Source: Thermomicrobiales bacterium
Lineage (GTDB): Bacteria; Chloroflexota; Chloroflexia; Thermomicrobiales; UBA6265
Direction of reading: 5' to 3'
Assembly (NCBI GenBank): GCA_965218235.1
Contig: OZ244595.1
Location: 806,561 to 870,560 of the forward strand
Length of the DNA: 64,000 nt
Under the pieces are notes generated by a model. It saw only the letters and a list, made by a program, of their open reading frames with translations. It searched no databases and was not told where the DNA came from. Each line of letters starts with the position of its first letter. The first letter of the stretch is position 1. The position numbers were made by a program, and so were the translations under genes. Shown here piece by piece: positions 54,811 to 64,000 of the stretch.

Positions 54811-55821
54811 TCATCTCGTTCGCGCTGGACCGGTTGATCCACGCACCATCAGCTCGACCGGTAGGTCCATCCCGTCGACGATACCGTCCTCTCCGGCGAT
54901 CCGGCCGAGGAGCAGTCGGACCGCCGCCGCGCCGATGTCCTCGAACGAGATCCGGATCGAGGTCAGCGGCGGGTCGGTGAAGCGGGTCAGCTCGATGTCG
55001 TCGCAGCCGACGACCGAGACGTCCTTGGGGATCCGTAGCCCGCGCCGCCGCAGGGCGTGCATCGCCCCGATCGCCATGTAGTCGTTCAGGACGAAGACCG
55101 CCGTGATCCCCGGTGCCCGGTCCAGCAACGTGTTCATCGCCCGGTAGCCGCCTTCGGCGGTCCACGAGCCGTTCTCGACCAGCCGGCTGGCCCAGTCCGA
55201 ATCCGCCCGCCCGATCCCCGCCGCGAAGCTGTGCAGCCGGCCGACGATCGGCTGCCAGACGGGGTCGCCGGTAATCGCGGCGATCTCCCGGTGGCCCAGG
55301 GCAGTGAGGTGGTCCGCGGTGAGCCGGCCGGTCTGGCGGTGATCCTCGACGACATGCGGGATGCCGGCGCCGAAGCTGGAGACGGCGCTGACGCTCGGGA
55401 TGGTTCCGAGGAGGTCGATCAGTGGAGTGTAGGTCTGATGGGCGATCGCGGCGCTGACGACCCCGTCGACCCGGCGCTCAAGCAGCTGCTGGACGAGCTG
55501 GTCGATGTGCGCGCCGTCCCCCTCGGCCAGCGTGAAGATCGAGAAGTAACCCTGCGCCGTCGCCTCTCGCTCGACGCCGCGCATCAGCGGCGTCAGGACG
55601 TACGACGCCAGTCCTGAGGCGACGAAGCCGATCGACCGGGTGCTGCGCGTCTTGAGGCTGCGGGCAACGGTGTTGGGGACGTAGCCCAGCTCCGCGGCCG
55701 CCGCCAGGATCCGCTCCCGGGTGGCGGGGGCGATCCGCCCCTCGCCATTGAGCGCCTTGCCGACGGTCTGGAAACTCACGCCCGCGTGCTCGGCGATGTC
55801 GCGCAGGGAGACGTGAGCCAT
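54811..55821 (-). CDS. LacI family transcriptional regulator
   Basis: MAHVSLRDIAEHAGVSFQTVGKALNG...ILAAAAELGYVPNTVARSLKT (HTH_LacI) followed by a periplasmic-binding-fold domain. GGAAGGAAAGGA RBS before ATG 55821. Confidence 0.85.
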   Translation of the reverse strand: MAHVSLRDIAEHAGVSFQTVGKALNGEGRIAPATRERILAAAAELGYVPNTVARSLKTRSTRSIGFVASGLASYVLTPLMRGVEREATAQGYFSIFTLAEGDGAHIDQLVQQLLERRVDGVVSAAIAHQTYTPLIDLLGTIPSVSAVSSFGAGIPHVVEDHRQTGRLTADHLTALGHREIAAITGDPVWQPIVGRLHSFAAGIGRADSDWASRLVENGSWTAEGGYRAMNTLLDRAPGITAVFVLNDYMAIGAMHALRRRGLRIPKDVSVVGCDDIELTRFTDPPLTSIRISFEDIGAAAVRLLLGRIAGEDGIVDGMDLPVELMVRGSTGPARTR

Positions 55822-55946
55822 CGGGGTCCTTTCCTTCCATCCGCTCGTGGCCCTGCCAGCGGCTGACTTTCCGCTGACCATTCGGGTCGTCACATTCGGC
55901 GGCAACACTACCGCAGACAGGCCACGATTTGCCCCGGTTCGTCCGG

Positions 55947-56006
55947 TTGACGGCGACGAAAGCATAGGATAAGCTCATCGCCATAACGTGAGCGAACGTT
56001 CGCGCA
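55947..56006 (+). promoter_or_regulatory. Promoter candidate (TTGACG-17 nt-TAAGCT) followed by the LacI-type operator TGAGCGAACGTTCGCGCA
   Basis: -35 at 55947-55952 and -10 at 55970-55975. The 18-bp palindrome at 55989-56006 has a perfect 12-bp core GCGAACGTTCGC and the central CG typical of LacI-family operators. Confidence 0.6.
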
Positions 56007-56177
56007 TCGGTCGTCGGGATGGAGTTGACTGCGGCCGGTCGGGCCGCGACTGATACGGTCCCGAGCGATCCTGGCTCAGCGGCGGAGGTGTCGCGAGCGG
56101 CCATTTTCGGGATCGAGGTCATCGTCCCAGTCGTGATCAGCCCGCCGGATCAGCCGCTCCAACGAAGGGGTCGTCCA

Positions 56178-57272
56178 GTGACGAACGCACGGAAACGCGT
56201 CCTGCTCATCGGTGCCGGTGGTTTCGCCAACGTCTGGGTTCACGAGTTCCTGCCCGCGTTCCAGGATCGGATCGAGGTCGTCGGCCTCGTCGACATCAAC
56301 CCCGAGACGCTCCGCCGGGCCGGCGACCGGCTCGGTGTCCCGGACGGCCAGCGCTTCCTCAGCATGGAGGAGGGGTTCGCCGGGACCACGGCCGACGCCT
56401 GCATCATCGTCGTCCAGCCCTTCCTTCGCTGGCAGGCCGTCAACCTGGCCGTCGCCCACGGTCTGCCGATCCTGGCCGAGAAGCCGATCGCCGACTCCTG
56501 GGAGACGAGCCTCGCCATCCTGAACCTCGTCCGGACGACCGGGACGAAGATGGCCGTCGTCCAGAACTACCGCTACTCCCGCCCTATCCGCACGCTCAAG
56601 CGCGTCCTCGAGAGCGGGGAGCTGGGCCGGACCAACTTCATCTCGTCCCGCTTCGCCGCCGACTACACGATCGAGACGGCCGGCGGCGCCTTCCGCCACC
56701 AGATTCCCTACGCGATGCTCTACGAGGGCGCCGTTCATCACTTCGACCAGTTCCGCAACCTGGCGGACGCCGACGGCGAATCCATCGCCGGCTTCCAGTG
56801 GAATCCGGCCTGGACGACGTTCGCCAACGACACGACGGCCGCCTTCCTGATCCGGATGACCAACGGCGTCGTCGGCCAGTTCGAGATCAACCACCTCGCC
56901 CGCGGCACCCAGAACGGCTGGCACGAGGAGGGCTACCGCGTCGAGTGCGAGCACGGCGCCGTCACGATCGACGGCGACGGGCTGGTCCGGACCCATGTCC
57001 ACCTCGGTGACAACCGGCTCCAGGTGACTGATGTCGCGCCGGTGGTCGGGGAGCACGAGGACCATCTCCAGGTCATCGCCGACTTCCTCGACTGGCTGGA
57101 CGGCGGGCCGGTCCCGAGGACGAACATCGAGGACAACATCCAGACCGCCGCGCTCTCGTTCGCGGCCGTCGAGGCGGTCCGGACGAACGCGATGATCGAT
57201 ATCCGAGCCATGGCGGAGGCGGGGCTTGCCTCGATCGCCGCCGGGGATGCCGTGTCGCTGGCAACGCGCTGA
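56178..57272 (+). CDS. Gfo/Idh/MocA family oxidoreductase
   Basis: KRVLLIGAGGFANVWVHEFLPAF Rossmann N-terminus right after GTG 56178 (GAAGGGG RBS). The track start 56019 would add 53 non-family residues. Confidence 0.7.
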   Translation: MTNARKRVLLIGAGGFANVWVHEFLPAFQDRIEVVGLVDINPETLRRAGDRLGVPDGQRFLSMEEGFAGTTADACIIVVQPFLRWQAVNLAVAHGLPILAEKPIADSWETSLAILNLVRTTGTKMAVVQNYRYSRPIRTLKRVLESGELGRTNFISSRFAADYTIETAGGAFRHQIPYAMLYEGAVHHFDQFRNLADADGESIAGFQWNPAWTTFANDTTAAFLIRMTNGVVGQFEINHLARGTQNGWHEEGYRVECEHGAVTIDGDGLVRTHVHLGDNRLQVTDVAPVVGEHEDHLQVIADFLDWLDGGPVPRTNIEDNIQTAALSFAAVEAVRTNAMIDIRAMAEAGLASIAAGDAVSLATR

Positions 57273-57308
57273 TCGTCCTTCGATCGATCAACCACGAGGA
57301 GGTGGGAG

Positions 57309-57689
57309 ATGCCGGTTATCCGGTCCGTCGACGACAAGCCCGAGTGGGTCCAGTGGAGCAACTTCGGTGTTGGCATCGTCCACGACGCCGAGCCGTTTGA
57401 CCGCCATTTCCACGACGCCCATGAGTACTGGTTCATCTACTCCGGCCGGGCTCGGGTCATGAGCGAAGGGCAGGAGTACGAGATCGGGCCAGGCGACATC
57501 CTGGTCACGAGGATGGGCGACGAGCACGACATCCTCGAGATCCTGGATGGACCGCTCAGATCGTTCTGGGTCGAAGATCGGTTGCAGGGCCAGCGGCGTC
57601 CCGGGCACCTGCACCTGCCGGACGAGCAGCCGGACCGCTCCGGACGAAGCGAATCCGACGGACCGGTAACGGCGAAAGGGGAGGGTTGA
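57309..57689 (+). CDS. Cupin domain protein
   Basis: GAGGAGG RBS. HFHDAHEYWFIYSGRARV...GPGDILVTRMGDEH has the two-motif cupin pattern. Confidence 0.7.
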   Translation: MPVIRSVDDKPEWVQWSNFGVGIVHDAEPFDRHFHDAHEYWFIYSGRARVMSEGQEYEIGPGDILVTRMGDEHDILEILDGPLRSFWVEDRLQGQRRPGHLHLPDEQPDRSGRSESDGPVTAKGEG

Positions 57690-57777
57690 TCCGAGTCGTA
57701 AAGATGAGATTCGAGCCTGAAGGAACCGGAGCCTCACCATCCGTCCCGTGTAGCAACGACGTAGAAGGAGCACTTCG

Positions 57778-59169
57778 ATGACGAACCGCACCGACCGCCC
57801 CCTGCACGACATGTTCAAGATCAATGGCTCTGCGTTCACGCGCCGAAGCCTGCTCGCCGCCGGCGGTGGGACAGCCGCGCTGCTGGCGGCTGGCCGCTTC
57901 GCCGGTCCCGCCGCCGCTCAGGATCCGGCCGAGCTGGTCTTCCAGTACTGGGGTTCGCCCCAGGAGCAGGACGCCGTCAAGGGGATGACCGACAGCTTCA
58001 ATGCGCAAAACCCCGACGTCTCGGTCCGCGCCCAGTACGTCGCCAACGATGGCTACAACGAGCGCATGACGACCGCGCTGGCCGGTGGCACCGTCCCGGA
58101 CGTCGCCTACATCGACCCCGGCATGGCCTTCGACTGGGCCGCCAACGGCCATACCCTCGATTTGACCGACTATGTCACCAACGACACCGAGACCGGCGAT
58201 CTCATGCCGAACACCAATTACACGTACAACGGGGGCCGGATCCTGAGCACCAGCCTCGCGCTCACGATCAACTGCGTCCTCTACAACAAGACCCTCTTCG
58301 GGGACGCCGGCGTCGCGGCGCCGCCGACCACCGGTGAGACGGCCTGGACCTGGGACCAGTTCGTCGACACCGCGAAGCAGCTAACGAAGGACCGTGACGG
58401 CCGCAACGCCCTCGACCCCGGTTTCGACCCGGAGAGCATCGATGTCTACGGGACTACCCTCCCGTACTGGCTCCCGATGCTCTGGAGCAACAACGCCGGC
58501 GTTGCCTCCGAAGACGGCCTGACGTTCACGATGAACTCGCCCGAGGCGCTCGACGTCCTCCAGAAGCTCCAGGACCTGATCTACGTCCACCACGTCTCGC
58601 CGACGCCGGCGGCATCCGACGCGCTGCCCGCGACCAACGTGCTCATGCAGACAGGCAAGCTCGCCATGGACTGCAACGGCGCCTTCGTCATCCTTGACTA
58701 CGCCAACAACGAGGGCCTCGACTGGGGGCTCGGCGTGCTGCCGAAGCATCAGGTCCCGGCGGTCGACCTGGCCGGCATCCCGCTCGTCGTCTCAGGTACG
58801 ACCCAATTCCCGGACCAGGCCTACGAGTTCTATCGCTGGCGCTACAGCCCGGAGCGGATCGACCTCTACGCCCGCGGTCTCTGGATGCCGGCCCTGCAGA
58901 AGTACTACACCGACGAGGCCAGCATCAATCTCTGGCTGGACCCGGCCAACGGCGTCTACCCGCCGGAGGCCCGTCAGGTCCTGATCGATTACCCGCTCAA
59001 CCACTCCAATGATCAGGCGCCGATCTACTGGCTGAAGAACTTCAACCAGCTCAACATCGAGGTCATCGGTCCGGCCTTCGAGGCGCTCTTCGCCGGCGAG
59101 GGCGACGCGGCCACGCTGTTCAACGCCGCCGCGACGGCGGCTGCCCCGCTGATGCAGGGCCGTAACTAG
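57778..59169 (+). CDS. Sugar ABC transporter substrate-binding protein (CUT1 family), TAT-like signal
   Basis: FTRRSLLAAGGGTAALLAAG leader. LVFQYWGSPQEQDAV. Paralog at 61433..62887. Confidence 0.8.
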   Translation: MTNRTDRPLHDMFKINGSAFTRRSLLAAGGGTAALLAAGRFAGPAAAQDPAELVFQYWGSPQEQDAVKGMTDSFNAQNPDVSVRAQYVANDGYNERMTTALAGGTVPDVAYIDPGMAFDWAANGHTLDLTDYVTNDTETGDLMPNTNYTYNGGRILSTSLALTINCVLYNKTLFGDAGVAAPPTTGETAWTWDQFVDTAKQLTKDRDGRNALDPGFDPESIDVYGTTLPYWLPMLWSNNAGVASEDGLTFTMNSPEALDVLQKLQDLIYVHHVSPTPAASDALPATNVLMQTGKLAMDCNGAFVILDYANNEGLDWGLGVLPKHQVPAVDLAGIPLVVSGTTQFPDQAYEFYRWRYSPERIDLYARGLWMPALQKYYTDEASINLWLDPANGVYPPEARQVLIDYPLNHSNDQAPIYWLKNFNQLNIEVIGPAFEALFAGEGDAATLFNAAATAAAPLMQGRN

Positions 59170-59284
59170 CTGGCCTCGTGGGGATGGTCGCCGGTCCGGC
59201 CATCCCCGCGCGGCTCCATCTGCCGCCACGACCCGCCTCTGACCTGCTTCAGGGTGAGCGACGAACCAGAGAGGTGACAAGCGT

Positions 59285-60229
59285 ATGGTCAACGCCATTG
59301 AATCGAACCTGGCGGTGGACCACGTCCGGGCCGAGCCAGTCCGCAAGCAGCGGGTCCGGTCGGAGACGCTCTGGGGGATGCTCTGCGTCGCGCCGGCGGT
59401 GATGGGATTCCTGCTGTTCGAGTTCGGCCCGATGGTCGCCAGCTTCATCCTGACCCTGTCCGACTGGAGCGTTTCCGGCCAGACGCACTGGCTTGGCCTC
59501 CAGAACTTCCAGACGATCTTCCAGGATGACGCGCTGTTCCGGAAGGCGGCCCGAGTCACCCTCACCTACGCGGCGGTTAGTGTCCCGCTCCAGATCGTCG
59601 TCGCCTTCCTGCTGGCGCTGCTGCTCAACGAGCGCATCAAGGGGCTGCCGATCTTCCGGACGATCTTCTACCTGCCGGCGACGGTCCCGCTGGTCGCGTC
59701 GAGCGTGCTCTGGCTCTGGATGTTCAACCCGGACTTCGGTCTGCTCAACACCATCATCACCAGGGTCGGCCTGCCCGAACAGCAGTGGATCTACTCGTCC
59801 GACACGGTGCTGCCGTCGCTGATCCTGATGAGCCTCTGGGGCGTCGGCCCGATGATGATCATCTTCCTGGCCGGGCTGACCGCCATCCCGCAGCACCTCT
59901 ACGAGGCGGTCTCGCTCGACGGCGGCAACGTCTTCAACCGCCTCTGGAGCGTGACGATCCCGATGATCACGCCGACGATCTTCTTCAACCTCATCCTCAG
60001 CGTGATCGGCGCGCTTCAGACGTTCATCCAGGCCTACGTCATCACCGACGGAGGGCCGAACAACGCCAGTCTGTTCTACGGGCTCTATCTCTACCGCAAG
60101 GCGTTCGAACTCGGCGATCTCGGCTACGCGGCCGCTCTGGGCGTGATCCAGTTCGCGGTCATCGCCGTGTTGACCGTGATCGTCTTCTCGACATCCAACC
60201 GCTGGGTCCATTACGGGGGAGAGGATTAG
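59285..60229 (+). CDS. Sugar ABC transporter permease (MalF/UgpA-like)
   Basis: Six TM helices and EAA loop LYEAVSLDGGNVFNRLWSVTIPMI. Confidence 0.8.
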   Translation: MVNAIESNLAVDHVRAEPVRKQRVRSETLWGMLCVAPAVMGFLLFEFGPMVASFILTLSDWSVSGQTHWLGLQNFQTIFQDDALFRKAARVTLTYAAVSVPLQIVVAFLLALLLNERIKGLPIFRTIFYLPATVPLVASSVLWLWMFNPDFGLLNTIITRVGLPEQQWIYSSDTVLPSLILMSLWGVGPMMIIFLAGLTAIPQHLYEAVSLDGGNVFNRLWSVTIPMITPTIFFNLILSVIGALQTFIQAYVITDGGPNNASLFYGLYLYRKAFELGDLGYAAALGVIQFAVIAVLTVIVFSTSNRWVHYGGED

Positions 60230-61132
60230 ATGGCGACCATCCGTACCGATGACGCGCTCGGGGTCCGGGCGCCCCGACGTTCCTTCCTGCAGAGCCAGCG
60301 CGCGAGGCGGCGGATCGCGCTGGGCATCGCCTACGCGATCTGTCTGGTCTTCAGCGTGGCCATGTTGTTCCCCTTCGCCTGGCTGGTCCGCAGCTCCGTG
60401 ATGAGCCTGAACCAGATCTTCGTCTTTCCTCCAGAATGGATCCCCCGGCCCTGGCTCTGGAGCAACTACGACGAGGCGCTGACCGAGACCATCCCGTTCG
60501 GCCGGTACTTCATGAACACGCTGGTCATTGTTGTGCTCGTCGTGACGGGCACCGTGATCTCCTCGACGCTGGCGGCCTACGGCTTCGCCCGGCTGCGCTG
60601 GCCAGGTCGGGACATCGTCTTCGGAATCATGCTCAGCACCCTGATGCTGCCCTACGCGGTGACGCTGATCCCAACCTTCATCATCTGGAGCCACCTCGGG
60701 CTGACCAACACGATCATTCCGCTGACGCTGCCGGCCTGGTTCGGCGGCGGGATGTTCAACATCTTCCTGCTCCGCCAGTTCTTCCGGACGATCCCGCGTG
60801 ATCTCGACGACGCGGCCCGCCTCGACGGCGCTTCGCCGCCCCGGATTCTCTGGGACATCATCGTCCCGCTCAGCCGCCCGGCCCTGATCACGGTCGGCAT
60901 CTTCTCGTTCCTCGCCACCTGGAACGACTTCCTCAACCCGCTGATCTACCTGACCGACGATCGCAAGTACACCCTGGCGCTGGGCCTGGCTCAGTTCAAG
61001 GGCCTCTACAACTCCGAGTGGGGCTTGCTCATGGCCGCCTCGACCGTCGTGCTCATTCCAACGCTCGTCCTGTTCTTCATTGCCCAGCGGTACTTCATCG
61101 CCGGAATCGCCGTGACCGGCCTCAAGGGCTAG
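60230..61132 (+). CDS. Sugar ABC transporter permease (MalG/UgpE-like)
   Basis: Its start abuts the upstream stop. EAA loop LDDAARLDGASPPRILWDIIVPL. Confidence 0.8.
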   Translation: MATIRTDDALGVRAPRRSFLQSQRARRRIALGIAYAICLVFSVAMLFPFAWLVRSSVMSLNQIFVFPPEWIPRPWLWSNYDEALTETIPFGRYFMNTLVIVVLVVTGTVISSTLAAYGFARLRWPGRDIVFGIMLSTLMLPYAVTLIPTFIIWSHLGLTNTIIPLTLPAWFGGGMFNIFLLRQFFRTIPRDLDDAARLDGASPPRILWDIIVPLSRPALITVGIFSFLATWNDFLNPLIYLTDDRKYTLALGLAQFKGLYNSEWGLLMAASTVVLIPTLVLFFIAQRYFIAGIAVTGLKG

Positions 61133-61150
61133 GGGAGGGAGAGGACAACT

Positions 61151-61168
61151 GCCGCCCCGGAGGGCGGC
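61151..61168 (+). terminator. Small GC hairpin just after the permease stop
   Basis: GCCGCCC-CGGA-GGGCGGC (7-bp stem, 4-nt loop). No U-tract. Confidence 0.3.
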
Positions 61169-61175
61169 GACACGA

Positions 61176-61344
61176 CCCCTCCCCAACCCCTCCCCGGCCC
61201 GGATCGTCCCTTCGGTCCTCACCGTCCGGAGAGGGGCTCCGTTTCCGCAGCGTCGTTCCGGACTACGACGCCGGAGGCAGCCAGACACCCCTCTCCGGCC
61301 GCGAGCCCGCAGGCGAGCAGGGTCGGGGAGGGGCTGGGGAAGGG
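61176..61344. repeat. 169-bp nested-palindrome, G-quadruplex-prone repeat element (copy 1)
   Basis: Outer arms CCCCTCCCCAACCCCTCCCC (61176-61195) and GGGGAGGGGCTGGGGAAGGG (61325-61344) are 18/20 complementary. Inner arms CCGGAGAGGGG (61226-61236) and CCCCTCTCCGG (61288-61298) pair perfectly. It shares the 13-mer GGAGAGGGGCTCC with copy 2. Confidence 0.8.
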
Positions 61345-61432
61345 TTATCCGGCAAGCCACCACGCCGTTTAGCTCCCGCCGCCCACCGTTCACCGTCCAT
61401 TTGACATCGCCGTAGATCTGAAAGGGAATGCA

Positions 61433-62887
61433 ATGACGCACGGTAATGAACCCCGTACCGCCTCCGCTGCCCACCCCGCCACCGCCTTCGAGGCGATCAT
61501 GCAGGCGCTGGACCGGGCGCAACTCTCCCGCCGCAAGCTGCTCGTTGGGACGGCGGCGGCCAGCGCGGCCGTCGCCGCCGGAGCCGCCAGTGGCCCGCGG
61601 TTCGCGGCCGCGCAGGACGCGACGGAGATCGTCTTTACCTACTGGGGCTCGCCGCAGGAGCAGGACGCCGTCGCCAGCATGTGCGACAGCTTCAACGAGC
61701 AGAACCCGACCATCCAGGTCCGGGCCCAGTACATCCCCAACGACGGCTACATCGAGAAGATCACCACGATGCTGGCGTCCAACACGCTGGCCGATGTCGC
61801 CTACATGGACGCCGCCCAGGCGTGGGATATCACCGTTGGTGGCGCGACGCTGGACCTGGCCCAGTTCGTCGCCGGCGATGCAGAATCGGGCACCCTCGTC
61901 CCGAACACCAACTACGTCTACGACGGCGGCAAGGTAATGAGCACCAGTCTCGCCATCGGCATCATCCTGACCTATTACAACAGGAAGCTGTTCGACGACG
62001 CCGGGATCCCTGTCCCGTCCTCGAAGGCCGCCGACGCGATGGCCTGGCCGGCCTTCGTCGATCTCGCCAAGAGCCTGACGAAAGACCGCTCCGGCCGCGA
62101 CGCCCACGACCCCGAGTTCGACGCCGGGAGCATCGACGTCTACGGCGTCACCTTCCAGCAGTTCCTCGAGGGTTATATGCCCTACATCCTGAGCAACGGC
62201 GGGAACTTCGCCAGCGCCGACGGGACTCAGCTGCTGCTCAACCAGCCCGAGGCGGTCGAGGCACTCCAGAACCTCCAGGACCTGATCTACGTCCACCACG
62301 TCGCCCCGACACCCGCCCAGTCGTCGGCGCTCCCCGCCACGGATGTCCTGATGCAGACCGGCAAGATCGCGATGGATCTGAACGGCATGTGGAAGGTCCT
62401 CGACTATAGCCAGCACGAGGGGCTGGACTGGGGCGTCGCGCCGCTGCCGTACTTCAAGGAGCCGGTCACCGTCCGGTTCGGCATCCCGATCATCGTCTCG
62501 GCCCAGACCGCCAACCCGGCCGCGACCTACGAGTTCTACCGGTGGCGCTACAGCCCGGACCGGATCGACCTCTACCGCCGCGGCCTCTGGATGCCGATCG
62601 AGCAGGCGTCCTACACGGACGAGACGAAGATCGCGGCCTGGATCGACGCCGAGGAGGGCGTCTACCCGGAGAACGCCCGCGACGTCTTCATCGACTACGC
62701 CCTCAACAACGCGCCCTACCAGACGCCGGGCTACTGGCTGAAGAACCTCAACCAGATCCTGCTCGAGGCCGTCACTCCGGCCCTCGACCTGATCTGGACC
62801 GGCGAGGCGACGGCCCAGGCGGCGATGGATCAGGCCGTCGCCAACGCGACTCCGCTGATGCAGGGCGTCTACCAGCCCCCGGCTTGA
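61433..62887 (+). CDS. Sugar ABC transporter substrate-binding protein (CUT1 family), TAT-like signal; paralog of 57778..59169
   Basis: LSRRKLLVGTAAASAAVAAG leader. IVFTYWGSPQEQDAV. AAAGGGA RBS. Confidence 0.8.
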   Translation: MTHGNEPRTASAAHPATAFEAIMQALDRAQLSRRKLLVGTAAASAAVAAGAASGPRFAAAQDATEIVFTYWGSPQEQDAVASMCDSFNEQNPTIQVRAQYIPNDGYIEKITTMLASNTLADVAYMDAAQAWDITVGGATLDLAQFVAGDAESGTLVPNTNYVYDGGKVMSTSLAIGIILTYYNRKLFDDAGIPVPSSKAADAMAWPAFVDLAKSLTKDRSGRDAHDPEFDAGSIDVYGVTFQQFLEGYMPYILSNGGNFASADGTQLLLNQPEAVEALQNLQDLIYVHHVAPTPAQSSALPATDVLMQTGKIAMDLNGMWKVLDYSQHEGLDWGVAPLPYFKEPVTVRFGIPIIVSAQTANPAATYEFYRWRYSPDRIDLYRRGLWMPIEQASYTDETKIAAWIDAEEGVYPENARDVFIDYALNNAPYQTPGYWLKNLNQILLEAVTPALDLIWTGEATAQAAMDQAVANATPLMQGVYQPPA

Positions 62888-62903
62888 CGGACGGCGGGCG
62901 TAA

Positions 62904-63071
62904 CCCCACCCCTCCCCATCTCGCATCTGCGGATGCGGATGGAGAGGGGCTCCATGCTGGTCGTGCCTGAAGCCCTCTGTGATTGGCGTGGTCGTTCGCG
63001 ACGTTCTCCCCCTCTCCATCCGATGAGTCCTTGAAGAGGCGAATCGAGATGGGGAGGGGGCCGGGGGTGGG
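62904..63071. repeat. 168-bp nested-palindrome, G-quadruplex-prone repeat element (copy 2)
   Basis: Two hairpin units: CCCCTCCCCATC (62909-62920) / GATGGAGAGGGG (62938-62949), and CCCCTCTCCATC (63009-63020) / GATGGGGAGGGG (63048-63059). The outer C-tract 62904-62917 faces the G-tract GGGGAGGGGGCCGGGGGTGGG (63051-63071). Confidence 0.8.
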
Positions 63072-63105
63072 CTCTGGCCCGATCACCATCACATGGAGGA
63101 CAGGC

Positions 63106-64000
63106 GTGAGCCAACGTGACCCAGTCGTCGTTCTGATCGGTACGCTCGACACCAAGGGCACCGAGTACGCCTTCGTCCGCGATCGCCTGCGGGATCAGGG
63201 TGTCGCCGTCACGGTCGTCGATGCCGGCGTCCTGGGAACGCCGGGGTTCGATCCGGACATCTCCCGTGAGGAGGTGGCCCGCGGCGGCGGCGCCGATCTC
63301 CAGGACCTCGTGGCCGCCGGCAATCGCGGCGCCGCCGTGACGGCCATGGGGGAGGGGGCCGCCGCGGTCGTCGGTCGGCTGCACGCCGCCGGGCAGCTCG
63401 ACGCCGTCTTCGGTCTCGGCGGGTCGGGCGGGTCGTCGCTGTTCGCCCGGGCCGTCCGGGATCTGCCGGTCGGGGTGCCGAAGCTGCTCGTCTCGACCGT
63501 CGCCGCCGGCGACACGCGGCCCTACGTCGGCTCGACCGACCTGACGATGATGTACTCCGTCGTCGACATCGCCGGGATCAACTCGCTCTCGGTCCGGATC
63601 CTGACCAACGCCGCCGCCGCGATCGCCGGGATGGCCCGGGCAGCGGCCGAGCATGACTCCCTCTCTCCATCCGCGGATGGGGAGGGGGTCGGGGGGTGGG
63701 GCTCGTCCGCCGGTCGCCCACTGATCGGCGCGACCATGTTCGGTGTCACCACCCCGGCGGTGACCGCCGCCCGCGAGCGGCTGGAGGCGCTGGGCTACGA
63801 GGTGCTGGTCTTCCACGCGACCGGCTCCGGCGGTGACACGATGGAGGCGCTGGTCCGGAGCGGCATCATCACCGGCGTGCTTGACATCACGACGACGGAA
63901 CTGGCCGACGAACTGGCCGGCGGGATCTGCGCGGCCGGGCCGCACCGGCTGGAGGCGGCCGGGACGCGCGGACTGCCGCAGGTCGTCTCGCTCGGGGCGC
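63106..64000 (+). CDS. UPF0261 family (Tm-1-like ATP-binding domain) protein, 3' end outside window
   Basis: GGAGGA RBS and GTG 63106, open to the window end (not in the ORF track because it has no stop). VVVLIGTLDTKGTEY, GLGGSGGSS, VGVPKLLVSTVAAGDTRPYVG, DLTMMYSVVDIAGIN, ATMFGVTTP and VFHATGSGG match the family pattern. Confidence 0.75.
   Translation, partial: MSQRDPVVVLIGTLDTKGTEYAFVRDRLRDQGVAVTVVDAGVLGTPGFDPDISREEVARGGGADLQDLVAAGNRGAAVTAMGEGAAAVVGRLHAAGQLDAVFGLGGSGGSSLFARAVRDLPVGVPKLLVSTVAAGDTRPYVGSTDLTMMYSVVDIAGINSLSVRILTNAAAAIAGMARAAAEHDSLSPSADGEGVGGWGSSAGRPLIGATMFGVTTPAVTAARERLEALGYEVLVFHATGSGGDTMEALVRSGIITGVLDITTTELADELAGGICAAGPHRLEAAGTRGLPQVVSLGA
63657..63701. repeat. Short copy of the G-rich palindromic repeat, embedded in frame inside the UPF0261 gene
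   Basis: CTCCCTCTCTCCATCCGCGGATGGGGAGGGGGTCGGGGGGTGGGG aligns with the right half of copy 2, minus ~22 loop nt. It encodes ..SLSPSADGEGVGGWG.. in the interdomain linker. Confidence 0.75.

What the first reader, a model, noticed from the sequence alone, without database searches (positions are those of the whole stretch)
61132..63701. Family of ~169-bp nested-palindrome repeats with G-quadruplex-type tracts flanking one SBP gene
Both intergenic regions around the second SBP gene carry an element of almost identical size and plan: 61176..61344 (169 bp) and 62904..63071 (168 bp).
- Each has terminal poly-C and poly-G arms that are mutually complementary.
- Each has an inner pair built on GGAGAGGGG / CCCCTCTCC.
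- Both share the exact 13-mer GGAGAGGGGCTCC.
- The G-rich arms (GGGGAGGGGCTGGGGAAGGG; GGGGAGGGGGCCGGGGGTGGG) fit the canonical pattern of four G-runs with short loops. In copy 1 the C-rich arm also fits that pattern on the opposite strand; the C-rich arm of copy 2 has only three C-runs.

A third, shortened copy lies at 63657..63701. I saw no target-site duplications, and the elements carry no ORF. They could be a REP/MITE-like mobile repeat, transcript-stabilising or terminating structures, or recombination substrates that bracket the extra SBP gene.
Basis: seen in the sequence. Interest (0 to 1): 0.6.

Follow-up and report, generated by a model that had tools for sequence, protein, structure and literature searches.

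The report
BoxC-like hairpin/triplex/G4 repeat pairs
The two 169-bp "nested palindromes" and the short third copy are real members of a dispersed repeat family, best described as inverted pairs of a module already known from E. coli (BoxC) and methanogens, here in a Thermomicrobiales-like genome with unusually strict placement after stop codons.

Summary
Copy 1 (61176-61344) and copy 2 (62904-63071) are far beyond chance. Copy 2 has full-length relatives (75-81% identity over 160-180 nt) at 12 or more other loci in related metagenomic genomes.

The basic unit is not the 169-bp palindrome. It is a roughly 35-65-nt module: a C-rich arm, a loop, a G-rich arm, a 2-3-nt loop, then a mirror-image G-rich arm. 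This is the plan of the published BoxC/PIT/TMECO "intrastrand triplex motif" and of recurrent G-quadruplex-plus-C-tract repeats. Each large element is two such modules in inverted orientation around a structured spacer, so the nested complementarity follows automatically.

Copy 3 is a solitary module lying in frame inside the UPF0261 gene, in its inter-domain linker. Some orthologues share it.

In relatives, solitary modules sit 0-13 nt after stop codons with the G-rich strand as template strand (32 of 40 distinct sites).

I found no target-site duplications (TSDs), no Rfam family and no U-tract terminator. Orthologous loci lack copies 1 and 2.

Function is inferred: a REP-like 3'-end structure plus local instability. 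I class it as a new variant of a known kind, of moderate interest.

The parts
61176..61344 (.). Copy 1: an inverted pair of modules. The left module is on the - strand and the right module on the + strand, around a 51-nt spacer.
   Evidence: Inverted repeats. RNA fold -115 kcal/mol, z = -6.6. The left half is 92% identical to L215.
61176..61236 (-). Copy 1, left module, read on the - strand: Y CCCCTCTCC (61228-61236), long loop with inner hairpin, R GGGGAGGGG (61187-61195), loop TT, RH GGGGAGGGG (61176-61184). It starts 44 nt after the permease stop codon.
   Evidence: Found as a complete triplex-type module by the strict script, with 0.0 expected. Sequence.
61288..61344 (+). Copy 1, right module: Y CCCCTCTCC (61288-61296), loop, R GGGGAGGGG (61325-61333), loop CT, RH GGGGAAGGG (61336-61344, one mismatched triplet).
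   Evidence: RNA and DNA folds. G4Hunter 2.8.
62904..63071 (.). Copy 2: an inverted pair of modules with a conserved spacer. It starts 17 nt after the SBP2 stop codon.
   Evidence: Full-length homologues of 75-81% identity in 12 or more loci. Alignment A6.
62904..62949 (-). Copy 2, left module, read on the - strand: Y CCCCTCTCC (62941-62949), loop with inner hairpin GCATC-TGCG-GATGC, R GGGGAGGGG (62909-62917), and a degenerate RH (62904-62907).
   Evidence: Hairpin fold -32.2 kcal/mol, z = -5.3.
62963..62975 (.). Central mini-hairpin of the spacer. The family consensus is CGxGC-TGAA-GCx'C. In copy 2 it is slightly degenerate.
   Evidence: Pair x:x' in A6 is AU 5, CG 5, GC 5, i.e. compensatory.
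63004..63071 (+). Copy 2, right module: Y CCCCCTCTCC(ATC), long loop with inner hairpin, R GGGGAGGGGG (63051-63060), loop CC, RH GGGGGTGGG (63063-63071). The T lies opposite the A.
   Evidence: Strict module. Folds. Compensatory pair at column 150:172.
63657..63701 (+). Copy 3: a solitary module inside the UPF0261 coding sequence. Y is CTCCCTCTCTCC (63657-63668), with a short loop. R is GGGGAGGGGG (63679-63688), loop TC(G). RH is GGGGGGTGGGG (63691-63701). It encodes ...SLSPSADGEGVGGWG... in the inter-domain linker.
   Evidence: Translation. Pfam domains end at aa 180 and restart at aa 204. It is an insertion relative to Tm-1. Present in the window, L124 and L122; absent in L120 and L121.
60230..61132 (+). 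ABC-transporter permease gene, whose stop codon precedes copy 1.
   Evidence: Pfam BPD_transp_1.
61433..62887 (+). Second solute-binding protein gene (SBP2), flanked by copies 1 and 2. Its C-terminus is 9-14 codons shorter than in the orthologues.
   Evidence: Pfam SBP_bac_1. Alignment of the 3' ends.
63106..64000 (+). UPF0261 / Tm-1-like gene, which runs off the window and hosts copy 3. The database protein P0001 starts at ATG 63049 inside copy 2, which is probably an over-extension.

Best explanation
**What the elements are.** They are copies of a dispersed, non-coding repeat whose unit is a BoxC-like module on one strand: 5'-pyrimidine arm (CCCCTCTCC) - loop - purine arm (GGGGAGGGG) - 2-3-nt loop - mirror-image G-rich arm (GGGG[T/A]GGGG)-3'.

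- As single-stranded nucleic acid, the first two arms form a very stable hairpin.
- As single-stranded DNA, the third arm can lie on that hairpin as an antiparallel purine-motif triplex. Alternatively, the two G arms together can form a G-quadruplex.
- Copies 1 and 2 are two such modules in inverted orientation around a spacer that has its own small hairpin. This is why they read as nested palindromes.
- Copy 3 is a solitary module that became part of a coding sequence.

**Shown:** the family membership, the module plan, the position and strand rule in relatives, the structural conservation of the local hairpins, and the presence/absence differences between orthologous loci.

**Inferred:** modules lodge directly after stop codons with the C-rich strand in the mRNA. 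There the hairpin would act like REP elements, as a 3'-end barrier or insulator between genes of the ABC-transporter cluster. The G-rich structure-prone strand stays on the template strand. As a side effect, such sites make the surrounding intergenic DNA unstable. How the modules spread is unknown.
For: **Module plan**
- Reverse-Hoogsteen-compatible third arms are present in the window's modules.
- The third arm was not part of the search pattern. Even so, 78 of 128 metagenome hits carry one with at most 1 mismatch.
- In those 78, the base opposite the A is T (49) or A (29), never G or C. Only 3.4% of shuffled tails pass the same test.

**Same plan in the literature**
- TMECO/BoxC, including inverted pairs of two types (PMC4666352).
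- E. coli motif pairs on opposite strands (PMC5100583).
- An archaeal repeat with nearly the same arm sequences, shown in vitro to switch between hairpin, triplex and G4 (PMC8044849).

**Link between the window's architecture and the published family**
- My nested pattern found at least 119 loci across many phyla.
Where I compared coordinates (L005, L018) the match lies within the element.

**Family in relatives**
- At least 120 loci.
- Full-length homologues of copy 2.

**Structure**
- Local hairpins show compensatory changes. The covariation score is 0.189 against 0.098 in shuffles, with 0 of 500 shuffles reaching it.

**Position**
- Cross-phylum elements lie between tandem (53), convergent (17) and divergent (7) gene pairs.
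- For solitary modules in relatives, the G-tail faces the 3' end of a gene on the other strand at 32 of 40 de-duplicated sites (p = 1.8e-4). 18 of those 32 lie within 13 nt of the stop codon.
- Those upstream ORFs are real genes.
- The window obeys the rule: 44 nt and 17 nt after stop codons.

**Instability**
- The intergenic segments that carry the copies are unrelated in L120 and L124. Homology ends at the stop codon and resumes at the next gene's ribosome-binding site.
- This matches the variability reported around TMECO sites.
Against: - The strict TMECO consensus is not matched in the window.
- The first loops of four of the five modules are 23-33 nt, beyond the 1-6 nt used to define triplex motifs.
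- Several modules are imperfect. Copy 3 has two T.G mismatches, the left module of copy 2 lacks a proper third arm, and the right module of copy 1 has one bad triplet.
- Triplex formation was not detected in vivo in E. coli. BoxC showed no promoter or terminator activity there (PMC4666352), so the proposed 3'-end function has no experimental precedent for this class.
- The mRNA-sense hairpin is the weaker one: -25.5 against -34.6 kcal/mol, because of a C.A mismatch. That is odd for an RNA-level stabiliser.
- No U-tract follows the hairpins.
- The copy number in this genome itself is unknown.
Confidence: 0.7

Rival explanations
1. REPIN-type mobile DNA: singlets and inverted doublets of a hairpin repeat, moved as single-stranded DNA by a RAYT/IS200-like tyrosine (HUH) transposase encoded elsewhere in the genome. 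The strand bias would reflect insertion into one replication strand.
For: - The element shows a doublet-plus-singlet organisation, with inverted hairpins about 60 nt apart.
- A conserved stem mismatch makes the two strands unequal.
- There is a strong strand bias.
- Presence differs between orthologous loci.
Against: - There is no GTAG or CGTC tag at the hairpin base (reading).
- No transposase was found among the 85 + 34 flanking genes.
- Non-orthologous full copies are only 68-82% identical, with no near-identical master copies.
- Replication-strand bias alone does not explain the tight adjacency to stop codons.
- The presence of a RAYT gene could not be tested.
Confidence: 0.15
2. Classical MITE: a deletion derivative of an insertion sequence with terminal inverted repeats, moved in trans by its transposase.
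For: The size (about 169 bp), the terminal inverted C/G arms and the intergenic location.
Against: - There are no target-site duplications.
- Halves occur alone far more often than the pair.
- The arms are the stems of local hairpins.
- There is no linked transposase.
- Copies are old and diverged.
Confidence: 0.04
3. G-quadruplex (or i-motif) regulatory switch: the four G-runs fold into a quadruplex in DNA or RNA and control transcription or translation of the neighbouring SBP and UPF0261 genes.
For: - R+RH tracts score 2.8-3.4 on G4Hunter.
- Related sequences fold into G4 in vitro when the C tract is removed, or after annealing in K+ (PMC8044849; PMC5100583).
Against: - Every G tract is tethered to a complementary C arm. 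G4Hunter for the whole element is about 0.
- The base between the G-runs of the third arm is only A or T, as the triplex rule demands.
- In relatives the G-rich strand is usually the template strand, so the mRNA carries the C-rich version.
- Flanking genes are functionally diverse.
Confidence: 0.08
4. Recombination substrates that brought in, or can excise, the second SBP gene.
For: - Two similar inverted-repeat elements flank SBP2.
- The locus is rearranged among relatives.
- TMECO sites are associated with variable loci.
Against: - L120 has permease-permease-SBP2-UPF0261 with neither element.
- L124's deletion joins the body of SBP1 to the 3' end of SBP2, so it arose by recombination between paralogous genes.
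- Copies 1 and 2 share only their arms. Blastn of one against the other gives a 62-nt match at 68% identity.
Confidence: 0.03

Closest known systems
BoxC / PIT element / TMECO intrastrand triplex motif of E. coli and other Proteobacteria (Bachellier 1990s; Hoyne & Maher 2000, 2002; Holder et al. 2015, PMC4666352)
   Same: - The same three-block plan on one strand: C-rich arm, loop, G-rich arm, short loop, mirror G-rich arm, with A or T opposite the A.
- Multi-copy and intergenic, with loops more variable than stems.
- A common single mismatch.
- Occurrence as inverted pairs of two module types.
- No link to gene function or to mobile-element genes.
- Surrounding intergenic DNA differs between close relatives.
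- 16 of the cross-phylum loci that share the window's architecture match the strict TMECO consensus.
   Different: - The arms use G4-5/C4-5 runs instead of G3/C3, and the strict consensus is not matched.
- The second loop is 2-3 nt.
- The first loop is often 23-33 nt with its own hairpin.
- Pairs are separated by a conserved spacer of about 55-60 nt carrying a covarying mini-hairpin.
- There is a strong strand and stop-codon rule, whereas the E. coli authors reported no bias. My tally of Table 1 in PMC5100583 gives only a weak trend: 15 of 23.
- One copy lies inside a gene.
- The host is a Thermomicrobiales-like Chloroflexota genome.
Recurrent PQS + C-tract repeats of Methanomicrobiaceae (Chashchina et al. 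2021, PMC8044849), and the E. coli 'G-quadruplex-hairpin-duplex switch' (Kaplan et al. 2016, PMC5100583)
   Same: - Almost the same arm sequences. The archaeal repeat has GGGGGGTGGGGG-CA-GGGGAGGGGG-CTCG-CCCCCTCCCC. Window copy 3 has CTCCCTCTCTCC..GGGGAGGGGG-TC-GGGGGGTGGGG.
[quoted passage not shown]
- The quadruplex potential is always coupled to a complementary C tract.
- E. coli motifs occur in close pairs on opposite strands.
   Different: - The archaeal blocks are in the opposite order (G-G-C, class I) to those here (C-G-G, class II).
- The archaeal repeats lie about 300 nt from genes with no orientation rule. Here they lie 0-13 nt after stop codons with a strand rule.
REP / BIME / REPIN elements of Enterobacteria and Pseudomonas
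   Same: - GC-rich imperfect hairpins at the 3' ends of genes and between genes of operons, classically between SBP and permease genes of ABC transporters.
- Singlets and inverted doublets.
- Mosaic arrays with other repeats.
- The proposed mode of action, a 3'-end barrier, is borrowed from these elements (my own knowledge of malE-malF and hisJ-hisQ REPs).
   Different: - No GTAG or CGTC tag.
- A homopurine/homopyrimidine stem plus a third arm.
- Copies are diverged rather than near-identical.
- No RAYT has been shown.
Rickettsia palindromic elements (RPE) inserted in frame in protein genes (Ogata/Claverie; my own knowledge)
   Same: - Copy 3 is a palindromic repeat carried in frame in a surface or linker region of a conserved protein.
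- The short module (copy 3 / Form A consensus) has no stop codon in any frame, by my manual reading.
   Different: It is a single case here. The other two Pfam-supported 'inside ORF' hits are over-extended N-termini, and two more had no Pfam hit. RPEs do this often.

Membership tests
Class II purine-motif intrastrand triplex motif (generic definition, Holder 2015 / Hoyne & Maher 2000) | Three consecutive blocks on one strand, 5'-pyrimidine arm - loop - purine arm - loop - third arm-3', with arms 1 and 2 Watson-Crick complementary and at most one mismatch. | tested here: met
   The strict script finds copy 1-left (- strand) and copy 2-right (+ strand), against 0.0 expected in 200 simulations. 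Copy 3 has two T.G mismatches. Copy 1-right has one mismatched triplet (reading).
Class II purine-motif intrastrand triplex motif (generic definition) | The third arm is antiparallel to the purine arm, with G opposite G and A or T opposite A. | tested here: met
   In the window: GGGGAGGGGG-CC-GGGGGTGGG, GGGGAGGGG-TT-GGGGAGGGG and GGGGAGGGGG-TCG-GGGGGTGGGG. In the family: 78 of 128 hits with at most 1 mismatch, the base opposite the A being T 49, A 29, G/C 0, against 3.4% of shuffled tails.
Class II purine-motif intrastrand triplex motif (generic definition) | Stems of 6-15 nt and both loops of 1-6 nt (ITxF search criteria). | tested here: inconclusive
   Stems are 9-13 nt and loop 2 is 2-3 nt, so these are met. 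Loop 1 is 4 nt in copy 3 and in the common short form. It is 23-33 nt, with an internal hairpin, in the other four window modules.
TMECO / BoxC sensu stricto | Consensus CCCTCNCCC N3-6 GGGNGAGGG N3 GGGNGAGGG. | tested here: not met
   There are 0 matches in the window. There are matches in 16 of the cross-phylum loci that share the window's nested architecture.
TMECO / BoxC sensu lato | Multi-copy, intergenic, some copies in an inverted-pair configuration made of two module types. | tested here: met
   In this genome only 3 copies (5 modules) can be seen, because only 64 kb is available.
TMECO / BoxC | The single strand folds into a triplex in vitro (CD/NMR). | not testable with these tools
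   ViennaRNA gives only the hairpin part.
REP / REPIN (RAYT-associated) | A conserved GTAG or CGTC tetranucleotide at the base of the palindrome. | tested here: not met
   Module ends are C- or G-runs. There is no such tag at the stem base (reading).
REP / REPIN (RAYT-associated) | A cognate RAYT gene in the genome. | not testable with these tools
   The genome beyond the window was not retrievable. No transposase was found among 119 flanking genes of relatives.
MITE | Target-site duplications flanking terminal inverted repeats. | tested here: not met
   The flanks are gcgacacga / ttatccggc for copy 1 and gcgggcgtaa / ctctggccc for copy 2. There is no duplication.
Canonical G-quadruplex motif | Four runs of three or more G separated by loops of 1-7 nt. 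| tested here: met
   Copy 1-right, copy 2-right, copy 3 and copy 1-left (- strand) meet it. Copy 2-left has only three runs. G4Hunter is 2.8-3.4 for the G part and about 0 for whole elements, because of the paired C arms.
Intrinsic (Rho-independent) terminator | A GC-rich hairpin followed by a U-tract. | tested here: not met
   There are 0 terminator-like sites in 60900-63900. The hairpins are followed by CUUC or CUCC.
Described structured RNA family (Rfam 15) | A match to a covariance model at the gathering score. | tested here: not met
   There is none in the window and none in 18 representative loci.
In-frame palindromic-repeat insertion (RPE-like) - copy 3 only | The repeat lies in frame inside a conserved gene, at a site where more distant homologues have no sequence. 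| tested here: met
   - There is an open frame through the module.
- It lies between Pfam domains at aa 181-203.
- It falls in a gap relative to Tm-1.
- The linker is about 16 aa shorter in distant homologues.
- The module is present in the window, L124 and L122, and absent in L120 and L121.

The most novel reading that the evidence does not exclude
In high-GC bacteria that lack U-tract terminators, BoxC-like modules may be a strand-specific 3'-end signal rather than junk. Placed within a few nucleotides of the stop codon, the G-rich triplex/G4-prone strand is the template and the C-rich version is in the mRNA. The module would then end or insulate transcription, or act on the terminating ribosome. 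It would do so through a template-strand non-B structure or a C-rich RNA hairpin/triple helix. This would give the long-orphan BoxC class a function and explain why the same arm sequences recur from Proteobacteria to Chloroflexota and methanogens.
Probability: 0.15. Interest if true: 0.7.

Novelty: new variant of a known kind. Interest (0 to 1): 0.42.

Why it matters
BoxC/PIT/TMECO-type repeats have been known since the 1990s and still have no accepted function. This window adds three things.

- **A well-populated relative in a distant phylum.** It shows that the same architecture is spread over at least eight phyla.
- **A strict positional and strand rule.** Modules sit directly after stop codons with the G-rich strand as template. 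This rule was not reported for E. coli or archaea, and it can be tested by 3'-end mapping.
- **Compensatory changes that keep the local hairpins, and a copy fixed in frame in a protein linker.** These are useful leads for anyone asking whether such non-B-DNA-prone repeats are functional or merely tolerated.

For annotation it also matters practically. The repeats cause over-extended gene starts (P0001) and mark hypervariable intergenic cassettes.

Tried and rejected
- **Rfam.** Searches at gathering and permissive thresholds on the window, and on 18 loci from other phyla, gave nothing.
- **Retrieving the source genome.** Exact-protein look-ups for SBP2, the permease and P0001 were not on record. 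Genome-wide copy number therefore could not be obtained.
- **A specific link to SBP genes.** This is only a mild excess: 5 of 85 upstream genes across phyla and about 5 of 34 in relatives. Upstream genes are otherwise diverse.
- **The nested long-range pairing as the conserved structure.** The arms are almost invariant, so they carry little information (covariation 0.110 against 0.089). The covariation sits in the local hairpins.
- **My own idea that the T.G (G.U) position marks the transcribed strand.** The strand rule contradicts it. The mRNA usually carries the C.A version, which is the weaker hairpin.
- **The conserved stem mismatch as a family-wide feature.** It could not be assessed without bias, because both search patterns imposed it. 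Only 12 unselected modules were available: 6 perfect and 6 mismatched.
- **Further in-frame copies.** The other 'inside ORF' cases are the same UPF0261 gene, or ORFs over-extended at the N-terminus.
- **Sigma-70 promoter and U-tract terminator scans.** Both gave none.
- **A second repeat family seen next to the modules in relatives** (GGCGCCTTGCGGCGC...). It is absent from the window.
- **Recent transposition.** No near-identical copies occur at different sites.

Full report
**1. The observation**

- Copy 1 has 32-nt outer arms (84% complementary) and the inner pair GGAGAGGGG / CCCCTCTCC.
- Copy 2 has a perfect 15-nt outer pair and a perfect 14-nt inner pair.
- The 13-mer GGAGAGGGGCTCC occurs exactly twice, against 0.01 expected.
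- Seven of the eight GGGGAGGGG sites of the 64-kb window lie in this 2.6-kb stretch.
- Both large elements fold far better than shuffles: z = -6.6 and -4.1.
- A blastn of the copies against the window, and a scan for C/T and G/A arms, found no other copy in the remaining 61 kb.

The gene context on the + strand is: SBP1 (57778-59169), two permeases (59285-61132), copy 1, SBP2 (61433-62887), copy 2, then a UPF0261/Tm-1-like gene from GTG 63106.

Copy 3 (63657-63701) lies inside that last gene, in frame. It encodes ..SLSPSADGEGVGGWG.. between the two Pfam domains.

**2. It is a real family, and a widespread architecture**

- The hosts include Longimicrobium, Methylobacterium, Azospirillum, Burkholderiales, Acidobacteriota, Armatimonadota, Ktedonobacterales, Thermomicrobiales and Planctomycetota.
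- Nearly all hits also carry the outer C arm, which the pattern did not demand.
- The hits are intergenic. They lie mostly between tandem (53) or convergent (17) genes and rarely between divergent ones (7). They follow genes of all kinds.

A second pattern, specific to the copy 2 / copy 3 flavour, hit at least 120 metagenomic loci. Most belong to the same assemblies as the orthologues of this locus.

- Copy 2 has full-length homologues (75-81% identity over 160-180 nt, both orientations) in 12 or more of them.
- Copy 1 is matched half by half; for example, its left half is 92% identical to L215.

No Rfam family covers any of this. The host of the window is a Thermomicrobiales-like organism, judging from the names attached to the closest UPF0261 homologues and from L046.

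**3. The unit is a module, not the 169-bp palindrome**

In the relatives the commonest form (44 hits) is a short solitary unit, CCCCTCTCC-ATCCGCAGAT-GGGGAGGGG-TT-GGGG(T/A)GGGG. This is the same as window copy 3.

The large elements are two such units in inverted orientation around a spacer. The left unit is read on the - strand and the right unit on the + strand. Two inverted copies of one unit automatically give perfect outer (C1:G2) and inner (G1:C2) complementarity.

I aligned 18 full elements (A6) and counted pairs under two models.

- **Local hairpins:** 47 cells with changes on both sides; covariation 0.189 against 0.098 in shuffles, with 0 of 500 shuffles reaching it.
  - The central mini-hairpin CGxGC-TGAA-GCx'C has x:x' as AU 5, CG 5, GC 5.
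  - A pair inside the long loop of the right unit is GC 8, AU 5, CG 5.
- **Long-range arms:** almost invariant and hardly informative; covariation 0.110 against 0.089.

**4. What the module is**

The third block is a mirror image of the second. G lies opposite G, and A or T lies opposite the single A.

- In the window: GGGGAGGGGG-CC-GGGGGTGGG (copy 2), GGGGAGGGG-TT-GGGGAGGGG (copy 1 left, - strand), GGGGAGGGGG-TCG-GGGGGTGGGG (copy 3).
- In the metagenome hits, whose third block was not part of the search, 78 of 128 have it with at most one mismatch.
- In those 78, the base opposite the A is T 49 times, A 29 times, and never G or C. Only 3.4% of shuffled tails pass.

This is exactly the class II purine-motif intrastrand triplex plan described for BoxC / PIT / TMECO in E. 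coli and 262 proteobacterial genomes (PMC4666352).

- Those authors also report inverted pairs always made of two module types, a frequent mismatched triplet, and no link to gene function or mobile elements.
- The same E. coli repeats were re-described as a G-quadruplex-hairpin-duplex switch, again with close pairs on opposite strands (PMC5100583).
- Methanomicrobiaceae carry a repeat with nearly identical arms in the reverse block order. In vitro it moves between hairpin, antiparallel triplex and G4 (PMC8044849).

The strict TMECO consensus does not match the window. Where I compared coordinates (L005, L018) the match lies within the element, which ties the two together.

In the window, strict criteria recover two complete modules against 0.0 expected. 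The other three are slightly degenerate. The G parts score 2.8-3.4 on G4Hunter, but whole elements score about 0 because each G tract is tethered to its complement.

**5. A positional and strand rule**

For solitary modules in the relatives, the gene lying beyond the G-rich tail is on the opposite strand in 40 of 44 cases.

- After collapsing orthologous or duplicate sites, the count is 32 of 40 (p = 1.8e-4).
- 18 of those 32 lie within 13 nt of that gene's stop codon.
- On the other side, the next gene is 19-894 nt away.
- The abutting ORFs are genuine genes: SBPs, citrate synthase, SecA, KdpA, argininosuccinate synthase and others.

Read in the sense of the upstream gene, the layout is STOP, 0-13 nt, CCCCACCCC-AA-CCCCTCCCC-loop-GGAGAGGGG. 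The mRNA therefore carries the C-rich version, and the triplex/G4-prone G-rich strand is the template strand.

The window obeys this rule. The - strand modules of copies 1 and 2 start 44 nt and 17 nt after the permease and SBP2 stop codons.

The mRNA-sense hairpin is the weaker one: -25.5 against -34.6 kcal/mol for the consensus, because a T.G becomes C.A. That argues against a simple "strongest RNA hairpin" logic.

E. coli authors reported no bias. My tally of Table 1 of PMC5100583 gives 15 of 23 in the same sense, which is only suggestive.

There is no U-tract terminator or sigma-70 promoter consensus around the window copies.

**6. Comparison of orthologous loci**

- **L120** (about 90% identity) has permease-permease-SBP2-UPF0261 but neither copy 1 nor copy 2.
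  - Homology with the window stops at the permease stop codon and at the end of SBP2.
  - It resumes just upstream of the next gene. The intervening segments are unrelated.
- **L124** (same 90% protein cluster) lacks window 59161-63093.
  - Its single SBP gene has an SBP1 body and an SBP2 3' end.
  - The deletion therefore arose by recombination between the paralogous genes, not between the repeats.
- **L122** keeps only the last 133 nt of SBP2.
- **The window's SBP2** is 9-14 codons shorter than its orthologues. The divergence begins at its stop codon.

So the repeats sit in hypervariable intergenic cassettes of a rearrangement-prone locus. This echoes the variability reported around TMECO sites. 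They do not explain the presence of SBP2.

Full copies at non-orthologous sites are only 68-82% identical. The family is therefore old rather than recently expanding.

**7. Copy 3**

- The module is present in the UPF0261 genes of the window, L124 and L122/L123/L190. The last three are about 80% identical at protein level.
- It is replaced by a shorter unrelated linker in L120 and L121, which are 88-91% identical.
- More distant homologues and Tm-1 have a linker about 16 residues shorter.

It is thus an in-frame repeat insertion in an inter-domain linker, comparable to Rickettsia palindromic elements. It is the only verified case in the material. The other 'inside ORF' hits with Pfam support are N-terminal ORF over-extensions, and two more had no Pfam match.

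**8. Interpretation**

- **Identity:** a new variant of the BoxC-type hairpin/triplex/G4 repeat class, present as two inverted pairs and one solitary coding copy. I hold this with good confidence.
- **Mechanism (inferred):** a REP-like structural element at gene 3' ends, acting as a barrier or insulator in the ABC-transporter cluster, with local genome instability as a side effect.
- **Caveats:** in E. coli no terminator or promoter activity and no in-vivo triplex were found, and the means of dispersal is unknown.
- **Rivals:** REPIN/RAYT mobilisation cannot be excluded without the genome. A classical MITE, a pure G4 switch and a bracketing recombination role are each disfavoured by specific results given above.

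Noticed in passing
window 63049-63105: The database protein identical to the window's UPF0261 product (P0001, 451 aa) starts at ATG 63049, inside the right arm of copy 2 (MGRGPGVGSGPITITWRTG...). Orthologues start at the GTG/ATG equivalent to 63106, which has a GGAGGA ribosome-binding site 7 nt upstream. This is probably an annotation over-extension caused by the stop-free repeat.
   Followed up: partly
window 55000-64000 versus L120, L122, L124: The segment between the cupin gene and UPF0261 is a rearrangement hot spot.
- The window has SBP1-permease-permease-SBP2.
- L120 lacks SBP1.
- L124 has one chimeric SBP (SBP1 body, SBP2 3' end) and no permeases.
- L122 keeps only a 133-nt remnant of the SBP2 3' end.
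   Followed up: yes
L120 7955-8000 and 9600-9800; L124 9905-9960; many of L125-L244: At least two other intergenic repeat families accompany the modules in the related genomes and form mosaic arrays. Examples are ..tatggcgcctgcggcgcggacaaggcaagccatgtccctac.. and ..ggttatcgccctgcggggcgatggccgctgcggcggccgggcgaggcaagccgtcgcccctacga... The first is absent from the window.
   Followed up: partly
window 59249-63019, - strand: A 1256-aa open reading frame runs antisense through two permease genes, copy 1, SBP2 and part of copy 2. It has no support and is the usual high-GC artefact. The short module is also free of stop codons in all six frames.
   Followed up: no
L120 19682-19738: A decayed right-half module (CCCCATCTCCATCCG...CGAGATGGGGATGGGG) lies between the SBP and permease genes of a different ABC transporter, on the - strand. 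This is the same kind of position as REP in malE-malF.
   Followed up: partly
L218 630-726; L023 342-935: Modules can be tandemly reiterated together with their flanks. Two copies lie 74 nt apart in L218. Two near-identical Longimicrobium elements lie 493 nt apart in L023.
   Followed up: no
L010, L011, L044 (Methylobacterium): The Methylobacterium subfamily (about 125-170 nt) has an extra outermost stem (GCGCGGGTTT ... AAACCCGCGC) beyond the C/G arms, and a conserved spacer found in both orientations.
   Followed up: no
window 63348-63358: GGGGGAGGGGG inside the UPF0261 coding sequence (..MGEGA..) is conserved in the orthologues. It is ordinary coding sequence, not a repeat copy.
   Followed up: partly
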